Virus genome (UHGV): UHGV-0363615
From: a virus
Strand: one strand, 5' to 3'
DNA: 23,822 bases
Position numbers: made by a program. Of this stretch, positions 6,001-9,000 are shown one piece after another (position 1 is the first letter of the stretch; every line of letters starts with the position of its first letter).

Positions 6001-9000
6001 GCTGGCTGTCCAGACGTGCTGAATGTTGCTGCAGCGTACGGGTAAGATCGCACTACTGTTGGTGTGAATTCTGACGGTACATTTACCCGTGCAGAGGCTG
6101 CGAAGAACACCATTTCTGTTAACGATGGTCTGGTGGCCCTGTCTGGTCGTACTGACCGTATTGATGCAGCAGTTGGTGCCATTGATGGCCGTGTCACCCG
6201 TAACACGCAATCCATTGAGAAAAACAGCAAGTCTTTAATGGATTTATCCAGATCAACAATAGCATCGCTTACACGCACATTTTTTGGAGCTGTAACATCA
6301 TGTGTATAGCTGCCATCCTCTTCCTGATAAATGGTTGTATCTGCCTGAATGGCTGCAACTACATTTTTTACAGATTCACGAGCATTTCCAACACTTTCAT
6401 TTTCATCCAATGTTATATTACCATTACGATCTAATGCAAATGAGGTTTCTCGTTCTGTATATTTTGACAGATTGCTAATTTTGTTAGAAGTATCAGCATA
6501 AATCTGTGCCTGCGTTTCTGCCGCATTACCATTTTTAATTATATTTAAAGCAATATCTGCATCGCCATTATTTTTTACTATATTATTATACACCGATACA
6601 TTTTTAGATGTCAGCATACCCTCTTCTGTTGTGCTACCACTTATTTTCTTTACAAGAGAATTAACATTAACAATATCTTTTTCACTTATATTATCAATAC
6701 TCTCTGGGGAAAGCTCAGGCACATAAACCGACATACTTAATGTTGAAGCAAGCTTGTTAAACTCAGCTTGAGTATTCACTCCCGGCTGGAAAACTTTAGG
6801 ACCTAATTTTTCTAAAACCTCTTTAATATTTACTGTTGTCAACATACCTGTTTTTGAGCTAAAAGGACCTATAACTACAGAGTCATCACTATATTTTTTA
6901 ATTAATGCATGATCATTATCAGTATTAACTGATATATAATAATTATCACTTATTTTCTTTGTTATTGTCTCAGCTACGGCACCAAAACTAACCCCAAACA
7001 AAACGCCAGCCAGTGCAGTAGACAAAACAGTCTTTGTAAATTTCTTGCTCATGTGGTATACCCTATAAAATTATCTGTATACAAATAAAACAGTTCAACA
7101 TCGGATATATAAAGAAAATCTGATGTCTCGCCGCTCTCATGAGCTTACTCCTGAAGAAATTCCGAATTTTAATATGAAGTTTTTCGGAATTTCCTTACTA
7201 TAACGTCGGTGATATCACGTCCGCGAAGGGATATCCGCATTACGACTGGCCTGCCACTTATTCTGTCTCTTTATTCATCAACAATTTGTATACGGTTACA
7301 TCTTTAATTGTGAAGTTAGTCACAAAAAGAAGAAAGTCAAATAATCAAATTGTGCTTAACTGTTTACATCAGCACAATCTGATGACCATTGAAGGACGCA
7401 CTAAATTATTTTCAGCAATCCCTCAGTCTACGAAAATTCTGTATCCCCTGAATGTTTAATTTACACTCTTTTTATGCAATTATTCTTTCGACTATAAAAA
7501 CACCACTATCTCATGTATGACCTTGGGGAGCGTGCCGTCTCCCCGTTTTTTCGCTTACAGTTTCATGACGACTTTCAGTTTCAGGAATCAGCAGTTACCA
7601 TGCAATACGAAAATTCTGTATTGCATCCGCGCCCTCATCTCAATATCTTTGTCGCCGGATAAAAATAACTATCAACCACAAGTATCATGCTCTCGGGGAG
7701 CACGCACTCCCCAGTTTTTTATCTTTGACAGGGGTGAAGGAGGCCGTTGCATCTCCTTTAATTATCATTGCCAGATTATTTCCTCGACCTGAGTATTCTT
7801 TATTTAGCCATAGCTTTGTAGCAAGGGGCTGGAGCGCCCCTCTTTTTTTCACCTGTCAGCCATGCCGACCTTATACGCCAGTATAGCTTCCGCATCATCC
7901 AGCGCTTCAATCTCTTTTTTCATCGTGCGCTGTCTGACATGAATTTCCAGACCTTTGGTAAACATCGCCTGCTCTGCCGCTTCACTCAGCGCTATAAGCT
8001 CTTCTGACTTCATCGGCACATCATTGTTTTCCGCATCCGTCCAGAAAAAACCCTCCGGCAGTATTCCTGCTTTCGCGGCAGCCACCGACGGCTCAAGACG
8101 CGTCTGCGTTGACTTCCCGTAGTCCCATTTACGCCCATTGTGCTCAAACGTGTAGTTCGCCGCTTCCATCGCATTACGCCAGGCGTTGATCCCGGCGGTT
8201 TTGAGTTCTCTGGCTTTTTCCGGGCTGATGGATGGCTGTACATATTCTGCAATTTCACCGGCCTCTCCTCTCAGACAAGCGGCATAAATATCCCGCCCGT
8301 ATGCTTCGGTATCGCTGGCTGTTGCAGTGAAAGGAGCCGCCTGCTCAATGTGCTCAAACTTCACCATGCAATTGACAGCAGTGTGATCTTTATCTGCCCA
8401 TTGCGGATTGCTTATTTTTTCCACATTCATGTTCATCTCCTGTCTGTCAGTATGCGCGCTGGAACAGCCCGATGCCTTCATTGTCATGTGTCGACGTAAT
8501 TTCATTACACACCATCCATGAGCCCGGAACTGAGGATAGGTTGCCGTCAATGCCATCGGTGTTAGCTTTCATATAGTTCCCGCTTGCATCTTTGATTATG
8601 GCGCATCGCTTAAGGCGTGAACCCTGTACAGTTTCTCCTGGCTGATAGGTTCTGCCGATGTCGGTTGTATACGGGGCTAGTGCGGCAATAATGTATGTTC
8701 CGATGCTGTAAATTTCCCCGGGTACCAGCCTTCCGGTTGGCCCTTGTGGTCCCTGTGGTCCCTGTGGTCCGGTTTTACCATCCAACCCGGGCGGTCCCAT
8801 CGGCCCTCGCCCTCCGGCAGGGCCCTGTGGCCCCGTTTTACCCGCAGGACCTGCCGGACCAACCGGCCCCGGAACACCCTGTGCCCCCGCTGGTCCCCTT
8901 TCACCTCGTGGCCCTGCCGGACCTGCCTTACCTTCCGCTCCGGCGGTACCATCCTTTCCTGCGGGGCCTGCCGGGCCTGCATCACCTTTGGGACCAGCTG

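What the first reader, a model, noticed from the sequence alone, without database searches (positions are those of the whole stretch)
7400..7850. Tandem units each ending in a plus-strand intrinsic terminator: candidate prophage small RNAs
No plus-strand protein gene exists here, yet three strong plus-strand terminators occur (7525..7551, 7695..7720, 7824..7849). Two of them belong to paralogous units that also share an upstream motif acgaaaattctgtat (near 7420 and 7607). The third sits on the 3' end of the convergent minus-strand gene.
Basis: partly seen in the sequence, partly recalled or inferred. Interest (0 to 1): 0.6.

Follow-up and report, generated by a model that had tools for sequence, protein, structure and literature searches.

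The report
Orphan terminators upstream of prophage eib
The spacer between a prophage tail-fibre assembly gene and the adhesin gene eib holds three real terminators that point against both neighbouring genes; two belong to repeated non-coding units that are reasonable but unproven small-RNA candidates, and the third is a common boundary element of such tail genes.

Summary
Window 7053-7848 is the 796-bp spacer between a DUF4376 tail-fibre assembly gene (tfa) and eib, both on the minus strand, in an E. coli Eib prophage.

- **Terminators:** three plus-strand hairpin+T-run terminators lie at 7524-7551, 7695-7720 and 7824-7849, with hairpin energies of -11.6 to -12.5 kcal/mol.
- **Motif:** an exact 16-mer, TACGAAAATTCTGTAT, occurs at 7429 and 7606.
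- **Coding:** no plus-strand ORF is credible.

The sRNA reading is only partly supported.

- **Unit 2 (7600-7720)** is the conserved core. It is present in all 44 alleles that cover it. It also has a significant homologue in a second adhesin-moron spacer family, where its terminator abuts the tfa stop codon.
- **Unit 1** is dispensable. Its terminator is weakened or destroyed in 8 alleles and deleted in 6.
- **T3** is generic. 19 of 23 distinct tfa 3' ends carry an antisense terminator on the stop codon.
- **Negative results:** there is no promoter above background, no structure beyond the terminators, no covariation and no Rfam match. The sequence occurs in only 27 of 5426 complete E. coli genomes.

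The best reading is a non-coding divergent transcript unit that may be an sRNA gene (0.4). The reading that these are insulating or relic terminators is nearly as likely (0.35).

The parts
7429..7444 (+). Motif copy 1, TACGAAAATTCTGTAT. Allele classes diverge immediately 3' of it.
   Evidence: Exact repeat. Unchanged in 40 of 42 alleles. Positions 7445-7448 split 29 to 13 between allele classes.
7429..7551 (+). Unit 1 (motif 1, about 80-nt body, terminator T1): the accessory, dispensable copy.
   Evidence: 62% identical to unit 2 overall, z about 7. A 177-nt stretch carrying it is missing in L037, and its 3' part is missing in the P-EibA class.
7524..7551 (+). T1: GGGGAGCG..CTCCCC hairpin followed by TTTTTT.
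   Evidence: -12.5 kcal/mol. Of 40 alleles that span it: 27 intact, 1 weakened, 7 with a destroyed 5' arm (-2.7 kcal/mol), 5 deleted. A further allele (L037) lacks the whole unit.
7600..7626 (+). 27-bp palindrome ATGCAATAC-GAAAATTCT-GTATTGCAT that contains motif copy 2 (7606-7621).
   Evidence: Read from the sequence. It forms a 5' stem-loop in the fold of unit 2. Motif 2 is unchanged in 38 of 39 alleles.
7606..7720 (+). Unit 2 (motif 2, body, terminator T2): the conserved core element.
   Evidence: Present in all 44 alleles that cover it. The 100 nt upstream of its hairpin are homologous to the tfa-proximal 100 nt of the L107/L102/L117 spacer type (z 4.2-4.3, p<0.0005).
7695..7720 (+). T2: GGGGAG-CACGCA-CTCCCC hairpin, then AG and TTTTTT.
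   Evidence: -11.6 kcal/mol. 6 of 44 alleles carry G7697T, which weakens it to -4.6 or -7.1 kcal/mol.
7735..7760 (+). Extra hairpin GAAGGAG..CTCCTT(T). It lacks a T-run in this allele.
   Evidence: In the diverged allele class the stem is longer (-14.8 kcal/mol) and is followed by AAATTTTTATT. A similar hairpin occurs in the L083-type spacer.
7824..7849 (+). T3: AGGGGC-TGGAGC-GCCCCT hairpin, then C and TTTTTTT. It overlaps the tfa stop codon and is a generic boundary terminator of the tfa module.
   Evidence: -11.6 kcal/mol. The stem is kept with a different loop in the 85%-identity allele class. 19 of 23 distinct tfa 3' ends have an antisense terminator at this position, with varied hairpin sequences.
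7849..8427 (-). Tail-fibre assembly gene (DUF4376).
   Evidence: Pfam PF14301, E 4e-18. RefSeq annotation of the same gene in L003.
5750..7052 (-). eib (trimeric autotransporter with a YadA anchor). In this window it is broken by an internal inverted segment.
   Evidence: YadA_anchor, E 7e-18. Annotated as eibA or as a YadA C-terminal domain protein in matching records. Inversion shown.
7054..7221 (-). Proximal eib control module, shared with other adhesin morons. It includes the stem-loop at 7156-7193 that is annotated in AF151091.
   Evidence: It is the only part of the spacer that BLAST finds in 14 other adhesin-moron loci, at 63-72% identity. 168 bp upstream of eibG were enough for plasmid complementation (PMC13534694). 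Stem_loop feature.
7344..7383 (.). Palindrome ATCAAATTGTGCT-N14-AGCACAATCTGAT, followed by the 11-bp copy-number repeat ATGACCATTGA (7382-7392).
   Evidence: Inverted repeat I5, 92% complementary. It reads TTGTGC-N17-CACAAT on both strands. The 11-mer is present once, twice or three times among alleles.
4985..5010 (+). Further plus-strand terminator GGGGAGC-ATGTT-GCTCCCC plus TTTTTTT, abutting the stop codon of the minus-strand orf-60 homologue.
   Evidence: -15.4 kcal/mol. In the lambdoid Eib prophage L003 the equivalent GGGGAG/CTCCCC hairpin ends a convergent dinI-like gene.

Best explanation
The distal half of the tfa-eib spacer carries short non-coding transcription units on the plus strand. 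They run divergently from eib and converge on the tail operon.

- **Core element:** unit 2 (about 7600-7720). It has a 27-bp palindrome holding the 16-nt motif at its 5' side, an A/U-rich body and the intrinsic terminator T2.
- **Accessory copy:** unit 1 (7429-7551) is a partly decayed tandem relative.
- **Separate element:** T3 (7824-7849) is the generic boundary terminator that comes with the tfa gene.

The proposed working is as follows. In the lysogen, ordinary RNA polymerase starts somewhere in the eib control region or at the motif. It makes RNAs of roughly 100-170 nt that stop at T1 or T2. Read-through is caught by T3 before it can run antisense into the late tail genes. The unit-2 RNA would then be a prophage sRNA.

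- **Shown:** the terminators, their strand, the non-coding nature of the region, the repeat, and the retention of unit 2.
- **Inferred:** that the units are transcribed, where transcripts start, and any trans-acting function.
For: - The terminators are unidirectional and orphan; both neighbouring genes are on the other strand.
- No coding potential.
- The exact 16-mer lies next to unrelated sequence in the two units, a conserved-ends, variable-centre pattern.
- Every allele class keeps one motif copy upstream of unit 2's body and T2: the two-unit form, the 114-nt fusion deletion and the 177-nt single-unit form.
- Between the eib-type and L107-type spacers, only the proximal eib promoter module (z 10.9) and unit 2 (z 4.3) are detectably homologous. 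The middle is not (z about 1).
- Antisense terminators at tfa ends are the rule (19 of 23). Where the neighbour is known, they end lysogen-type convergent units: a YkgJ-like gene in L067 and a dinI-like gene in L003.
- There is precedent for families of short sRNAs at prophage moron sites that share 3' regions: AgvB/AsxR (PMC4104026) and the Pas sRNAs.
Against: - No plus-strand sigma-70 promoter exceeds shuffled sequence. The best score is 8.2, against a median shuffle maximum of 9.2.
- The two units share no promoter-like element upstream of the motif (z 0.26).
- Folding z-scores are only -1.0 and -1.8, and there are no compensatory changes.
- T1 is destroyed or deleted in many alleles. T2 is weakened in 6 of 44, and the L102 type has an uncompensated stem mismatch.
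- The motif is only 11/18 conserved in the L107-type homologue.
- There is no Rfam hit and no significant pairing with the eib start region.
- No expression data were found.
Confidence: 0.4

Rival explanations
1. The terminators are insulators or relics, and the RNA has no function. T2 is the former boundary terminator of the adhesin-moron cassette; it still abuts tfa in the L107-type loci. T1 is a hitch-hiking duplicate, and T3 arrived with a recombined tfa module. Together they only stop stray plus-strand transcription from the AT-rich eib control region or from former convergent morons, so that it does not run antisense into the late tail operon. Late transcription is Q-antiterminated and ignores terminators. 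That explains why only antisense-oriented terminators are kept at this boundary (inference from lambda biology).
For: - 19 of 23 tfa ends have an antisense terminator and only 2 have a sense one.
- The same GGGGAG/CTCCCC stem ends a dinI-like gene in L003 and persists at 4985-5010 in this window without that gene.
- In L107-type loci the unit-2 homologue's terminator sits on the tfa stop codon.
- Redundant copies are decaying: T1 is lost in 13-14 alleles and T2 is weakened in 6.
- No promoter, structure or covariation was found.
Against: - It does not explain the 16/16 identity of the motif next to unrelated sequence.
- It does not explain why about 100 nt upstream of T2 stay recognisable between two spacer families whose middle parts do not.
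- T2 is kept in all 44 alleles even though T3 already does the insulating job.
Confidence: 0.35
2. The 16-nt repeats act at the DNA level. One option is that they are operator sites for a regulator of eib: motif 2 lies in a 27-bp palindrome with 9-bp arms, and the two copies are 177 bp apart. The other is that they are joints of a recombination or insertion event that placed the 161-nt T1-bearing segment in the spacer. Under this reading the terminators are incidental.
For: - L037 is a precise 'empty-site' allele: upstream flank, one motif, then the unit 2 body.
- Allele classes diverge exactly at the 3' end of motif 1.
- The spacer holds two other large palindromes, at 7156-7193 and 7344-7383.
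- Eib expression is known to be regulated by growth conditions (PMC4352079, PMC5450701).
Against: - 168 bp upstream of eibG suffice for expression from a plasmid, so the motifs are not needed for basal promoter activity.
- No recombinase gene was recognised nearby. Two small neighbouring ORFs gave no Pfam hits.
- A 16-bp target duplication would be unusual.
- L037 is equally well explained as a deletion between the two repeats.
Confidence: 0.15
3. The hairpins matter on the minus strand, either as 3' stabilisers of the tfa/late mRNA or as structures in a long read-through leader of eib.
For: - The hairpins fold equally well on the minus strand.
- T3-type hairpins directly follow the tfa stop codon.
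Against: - The consistently kept feature is the A-run between the stop codon and the hairpin, which is a T-run on the other strand. A stabiliser would not need it.
- An eib promoter lies within 168 bp of the start codon.
Confidence: 0.06
4. Small plus-strand proteins are encoded here, as annotated automatically in phage PhiR5_2.
For: Two 49-aa 'hypothetical proteins' are annotated on this strand in PV340546.
Against: - The ORFs cross terminators and have no good ribosome-binding sites.
- They are frameshifted by the 11-bp repeat and other indels, and they lose their start codons in the deletion alleles.
- No PHROG match.
Confidence: 0.02

Closest known systems
AgvB/AsxR (EcOnc01-03) anti-sRNAs of EHEC lambdoid prophages (Tree et al. 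2014, PMC4104026)
   Same: Short non-coding units at a prophage moron site. They are oriented against the neighbouring protein genes, occur as related copies that share a terminator-proximal 3' region, and end in intrinsic terminators.
   Different: - Those sit downstream of PR', near stx, not downstream of tfa.
- They are 51-60 nt long, with mapped start sites and Hfq binding.
- Rfam models RF02702 and RF02703 do not match this window.
- There is no blastn similarity to the Sakai genome.
- Here the conserved short block is 5' and is shared by both units, rather than variable.
Pas sRNAs of EPEC prophages (Pearl Mizrahi et al. 2021; Zhu, Shabalina and Storz 2026 preprint)
   Same: Intergenic prophage sRNAs with a 3' terminator, present in variable copy number and as sequence variants. 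PasB lies among phage structural genes.
   Different: - Pas genes occur in 1,362 genomes. This element occurs in 27 of 5426 complete E. coli genomes and not in E2348/69.
- Pas RNAs are validated by RIL-seq and Northern blots, and nothing is validated here.
OmrA/OmrB-type tandem sRNA paralogues of E. coli (from my own knowledge)
   Same: Two adjacent units on one strand with near-identical ends and a diverged centre, each with its own terminator.
   Different: - OmrA/B have OmpR-dependent promoters, a 5' seed and known targets.
- Here no promoter or target is identified, and one copy is dispensable.
Moron terminators and module-boundary sequences of lambdoid phages (Juhala et al. 2000, as cited in PMC4104026)
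   Same: Factor-independent terminators mark the edges of inserted cassettes. T3 and the 4985 hairpin sit exactly on stop codons at module joints.
   Different: A classical moron is a promoter, a protein gene and a terminator on one strand. Units 1 and 2 have a terminator but no gene.

Membership tests
Intrinsic (Rho-independent) terminator | G+C-rich stem of at least 5 bp, a short loop, and a run of T immediately 3' on the transcribed strand | tested here: met
   T1, T2 and T3 pass the scan on the plus strand only. Hairpin energies are -11.6 to -12.5 kcal/mol, with 6-7 T.
Intrinsic (Rho-independent) terminator | Actually stops RNA polymerase | not testable with these tools
   This needs Term-seq or a reporter assay.
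Trans-acting enterobacterial sRNA gene | Own promoter and a defined 5' end | tested here: not met
   No plus-strand sigma-70 match beats shuffles. There is no shared promoter-like element upstream of the two motifs. Activator-dependent or alternative-sigma promoters are not excluded.
Trans-acting enterobacterial sRNA gene | Non-coding, with an orphan terminator in an intergenic region | tested here: met
Trans-acting enterobacterial sRNA gene | Conserved seed and structure, supported by covariation | tested here: inconclusive
   The 16-mer is exact in both units and nearly invariant across alleles, but it is only 11/18 conserved in the L107-type homologue. Alleles are too similar for covariation. 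Fold z-scores are -1.0 and -1.8.
Trans-acting enterobacterial sRNA gene | Detected transcript, chaperone binding and targets | not testable with these tools
   No expression data were found in the held literature. Pairing to the eib start region is not significant.
AgvB / AsxR (Rfam RF02702, RF02703) and every other Rfam family | Match to the covariance model at the gathering score | tested here: not met
   There are no hits at gathering score in the whole window. Only chance-level hits, E 4-7, occur in 7000-8000.
Pas sRNAs (PasA-D) | Sequence homology to the E2348/69 genes | tested here: not met
   Sensitive blastn of 7390-7860 against all complete E. coli genomes, including E2348/69, hits only eib loci in 27 genomes. 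The Pas sequences themselves were not available for direct alignment.
Eib prophage tfa-eib spacer (Sandt and Hill P-Eib prophages) | Lies between the tail-fibre assembly gene and an eib gene, and is homologous to the AF151091 spacer | tested here: met
   95% identity to P-EibA, with a 114-nt deletion in the latter, and 99% to phage PhiR5_2.

The most novel reading that the evidence does not exclude
Unit 2, with unit 1 as a spare copy, is a previously undescribed sRNA family that travels with prophage trimeric-autotransporter adhesin morons (eib and the L107-type relatives). It would use the shared 16-nt block as a seed or protein-binding element. Through it, adhesin carriage would be coupled to host or prophage gene control, in the way the EHEC anti-sRNAs couple Stx phages to host sRNA networks.
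Probability: 0.25. Interest if true: 0.5.

Novelty: new member of a known kind. Interest (0 to 1): 0.3.

Why it matters
Eib adhesins bind immunoglobulin and drive chain-like adherence in LEE-negative STEC. Their regulation is poorly understood: it depends on growth conditions and, by my recollection of Sandt et al. 2002, on IbrAB.

If unit 2 is a real RNA regulator, it would be the first non-coding component of this moron. It would also be another case of prophages importing sRNAs together with virulence genes.

If it is not, the result is still useful for annotation:
- Antisense terminators sitting on tfa stop codons are a normal boundary feature and should not be called sRNA genes on that basis alone.
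- The 'hypothetical proteins' annotated on this strand in phage records are almost certainly spurious.

Tried and rejected
- **Rfam:** searched at gathering and at permissive thresholds; nothing.
- **tRNA/tmRNA scan:** none.
- **RfaH ops element:** matches at chance level, none in the spacer.
- **Plus-strand small proteins:** rejected.
- **Pairing of the unit RNAs or the motif with the eib translation start:** the motif resembles 7065-7082, but the duplex is only -7.4 kcal/mol. Whole-unit duplex energies are not better than shuffles (p 0.13 and 0.39).
- **Promoter search:** the consensus scan and my own weight-matrix scan gave nothing above background on the plus strand.
- **Idea that the units are relics of the region downstream of tfa in other prophages:** only the L107 type is related. 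Other tfa-downstream regions and other adhesin spacers are not.
- **Idea that unit 2 is a remnant of a dinI-like gene's 3' end:** only the hairpin is alike.
- **Relatives outside E. coli:** no Eib relative and no unit in the GTDB species representatives.
- **Distant blastn against phages:** only Eib phages.
- **Papers:** the original Sandt and Hill papers are not in the held library. A search for the PhiR5/PhiR12 phage names found nothing relevant.
- **My guess that ORF-156 is a LuxR-type regulator:** not supported by Pfam; there are no hits, and it matches only a PHROG of unknown function.
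Full report
**Where this is**

Window 7053-7848 is a 796-bp spacer between two minus-strand genes. One is a tail-fibre assembly gene with a DUF4376 domain (7849-8427). The other is a trimeric autotransporter gene with a YadA anchor that starts at 7052. The stretch 7050-7900 is 99.3% identical to Escherichia phage PhiR5_2. It is 95% identical, apart from a deletion, to prophage P-EibA of ECOR-9 (AF151091), where the flanking genes are orf-191A and eibA. Among 5426 complete E. coli genomes only 27 carry it, at 71 places, always between a DUF4376 gene and a YadA-type gene. The finding therefore lies in the upstream region of eib, the immunoglobulin-binding adhesin moron of Eib prophages.

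**The observation**

- 7524-7545 plus TTTTTT.
- 7695-7712 plus AGTTTTTT.
- 7824-7841 plus CTTTTTTT.

The 2.5-kb region holds 7 terminator-like sites against 2.3 expected. Hairpin energies are -12.5, -11.6 and -11.6 kcal/mol. On the minus strand the same hairpins are preceded by an A-run rather than followed by a T-run, so they work in one direction only.

The shared motif is an exact 16-mer, TACGAAAATTCTGTAT, at 7429 and 7606, 177 nt apart. None of 100 shuffles gave two matches, even with three mismatches allowed.

The mechanical plus-strand ORFs run through terminators. They are broken by an 11-bp copy-number repeat and by indels between alleles, and they match no phage protein family.

A weaker hairpin lies at 7735-7760. 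Another GGGGAGC-stem plus-strand terminator lies at 4985-5010.

**How alike the two units are**

Over their full length (7429-7560 against 7606-7730) the units are 62% identical, about 7 standard deviations above shuffles. The similarity is uneven:
- Motif: 16 of 16.
- Terminator stems: the same GGGGAG/CTCCCC.
- 3' third of the body: weakly similar (z 2.4).
- The roughly 40 nt after the motif: unrelated (z -1.2).
- The 40 nt upstream of each motif: unrelated (z 0.26).

The pattern is conserved ends with a replaced centre.

**Variation among 46 distinct alleles**

The alleles come from complete genomes, IMG/VR and human-gut metagenomes. The eib-proximal part (7050-7444) is almost invariant. Allele classes then diverge exactly at the 3' end of motif 1.

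Of the 40 alleles that span T1:
- 27 have T1 intact.
- 1 has a weakening substitution.
- 7 have lost the 5' arm (-2.7 kcal/mol).
- 5 (the P-EibA class) carry a 114-nt deletion (7511-7624). It removes T1 and motif 2 and fuses the body of unit 1 to the body of unit 2.

One further allele (L037) lacks exactly 177 nt. It keeps the upstream flank, one motif and unit 2.

Unit 2's body and T2 are present in all 44 alleles that cover them. Six carry G7697T, which weakens the stem to -4.6 or -7.1 kcal/mol. T3 keeps its stem with a different loop in the class that is about 85% identical.

Unit 1 is therefore dispensable. What every allele class keeps is one copy of the motif upstream of unit 2's body and T2.

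**T3 is a generic feature of the tfa module**

I fetched 70 viral-contig loci that encode relatives of this Tfa protein and examined the 23 distinct sequences downstream of the stop codon. Nineteen have a hairpin plus T-run on the antisense strand directly on or next to the stop codon, with quite different hairpin sequences. Only two have a terminator in the sense direction.

Where the neighbour is known, the terminator ends a convergent gene. This is a YkgJ-family gene in L067. At the other end of the eib cassette it is a dinI-like gene in L003, whose GGGGAG/CTCCCC terminator sits on the orf-60 stop codon. This window keeps that hairpin at 4985-5010 without the dinI gene.

A plausible reason follows from the known Q antitermination of lambdoid late transcription. 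Late transcripts ignore terminators. Only terminators that stop ordinary polymerase coming from lysogen-expressed units toward the late genes are therefore under selection at this boundary.

**A relative of unit 2 elsewhere**

Other adhesin morons downstream of tfa genes share only the proximal 7054-7221 with this spacer by BLAST, at 63-72% identity in 14 loci. That agrees with the report that 168 bp upstream of eibG suffice for plasmid complementation (PMC13534694).

In one of these families (L107, L102, L103, L110, L117), the 100 nt next to tfa align with the 100 nt upstream of T2 far better than chance (z 4.2-4.3, none of 2000 shuffles). They are followed by a GGGGAGC..GCTCCCC terminator that sits on the tfa stop codon. 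The middle of the two spacers is not detectably related (z about 1).

A profile built from unit 2 and these relatives gives only borderline hits to unit 1's 3' part (E 0.18) and to 4908-5010 (E 0.1).

Unit 2 is thus an older element of adhesin-moron spacers. In the eib type, roughly 100 nt plus T3 have been placed between it and tfa. In the L107-type relative the motif itself is only 11/18 conserved.

**What argues for an RNA product and what does not**

For:
- The terminators are orphan and unidirectional, with no coding sequence.
- Unit 2 is retained in every allele and in a second spacer family.
- A perfectly conserved short block lies next to unrelated sequence.
- The layout is sRNA-like: a 5' stem-loop formed by the 27-bp palindrome at 7600-7626, a second hairpin, an A/U-rich stretch, and a terminator.
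- There is precedent for sRNA families at prophage moron sites.

Against:
- No plus-strand sigma-70 promoter exceeds what shuffled sequence gives (best 8.2 against a median shuffle maximum of 9.2).
- Fold z-scores are -1.0, -1.8 and 0.0.
- No covariation is available, because the alleles are too similar.
- There is no Rfam family.
- There is no similarity to anything in E2348/69 or Sakai, so these are not Pas or EcOnc RNAs.
- Pairing with the eib start region is not significant.
- The hairpins show uncompensated decay.
- I found no expression data in the held literature.

**Verdict**

- **Most likely (0.4):** unit 2 is a short non-coding plus-strand transcription unit, possibly an sRNA gene, with unit 1 a decaying relative and T3 the standard boundary terminator of tfa.
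- **Nearly as likely (0.35):** all of these are insulating or relic terminators whose transcripts have no function.
- **DNA-level role (0.15):** the 16-mer and its palindrome act as an operator or as a recombination joint. This would account for the L037 'empty-site' allele and for the allele breakpoint at the motif.

This is a new, unvalidated member of a known kind, restricted to a rare prophage group, and of modest interest.

Noticed in passing
window 6049-6231 (within eib, 5750-7052, minus strand): A segment of about 185 bp inside eib is inverted in place relative to five other eib alleles (L001, L002, L034, L035, L051; 94% identity on the opposite strand). The flank 5700-6044 is collinear at 95-100%. 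The inversion breaks the reading frame into a 354-aa ORF plus a separate 73-aa YadA anchor ORF. No inverted repeats of 14 nt or more flank it. It could be a real inactivating inversion or an assembly error.
   Followed up: partly
window 4985-5010 (+), spacer 4907-5008: A strong plus-strand terminator, GGGGAGCATGTTGCTCCCC followed by TTTTTTT (-15.4 kcal/mol), lies on the stop codon of the minus-strand orf-60 homologue, and no plus-strand gene precedes it here. In lambdoid Eib prophages (L003) the equivalent hairpin ends a convergent dinI-like gene. It gives a weak profile hit to unit 2 (E 0.1).
   Followed up: partly
loci L068-L126 (3' ends of DUF4376 tail-fibre assembly genes): 19 of 23 distinct tfa 3' ends carry an antisense-strand hairpin plus T-run directly on or next to the stop codon, with unrelated hairpin sequences. 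Only 2 have a sense-strand terminator. This is a general boundary feature of this gene module.
   Followed up: yes
window 7382-7392: The 11-bp unit ATGACCATTGA is present once in this window and in 30 other alleles, twice in 14 alleles and three times in 1 (L062). It sits just after the 7344-7383 palindrome in the conserved part of the eib upstream region. It changes spacing by about one helical turn per copy.
   Followed up: no
window 7344-7383: The palindrome ATCAAATTGTGCT-N14-AGCACAATCTGAT reads as the same weak promoter-like pair, TTGTGC-N17-CACAAT, on both strands. It may be a bidirectional promoter or an operator, and it is invariant in all alleles.
   Followed up: no
window 7054-7221, including the inverted repeat at 7156-7193: The roughly 165 nt next to the eib start codon are shared at 63-72% identity with at least five other adhesin-moron spacer types downstream of tfa genes. 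They contain the stem-loop (GAAATTCCGAA-N16-TTCGGAATTTC) that Sandt and Hill annotated in AF151091. This matches the 168-bp fragment used for eibG complementation in PMC13534694.
   Followed up: partly
locus L037 (metagenome contig OGGU01003443.1), aligned to window 7429-7605: This is a single-unit allele that lacks exactly 177 nt. It reads as the upstream flank, one copy of the 16-mer, then the unit 2 body. It is either a deletion between the two repeats or the state before unit 1 was inserted.
   Followed up: partly
window 8447-10480 and 10477-11127 (minus strand): The tail fibre upstream of tfa has long collagen-like Gly-X-Y repeats (Pfam Collagen, E 9e-45). The next gene matches the SU10 adaptor family. 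A second tail-tip-like gene lies at 1938-3206, beyond the eib cassette. The eib cassette therefore sits inside a tail gene region in this phage rather than at a prophage end.
   Followed up: no
phage record PV340546.1 (L002 3261-3410 and 3464-3613): Two 49-aa 'hypothetical proteins' are annotated on the plus strand of this spacer in PhiR5_2. They overlap the non-coding units and are very likely spurious gene calls.
   Followed up: yes
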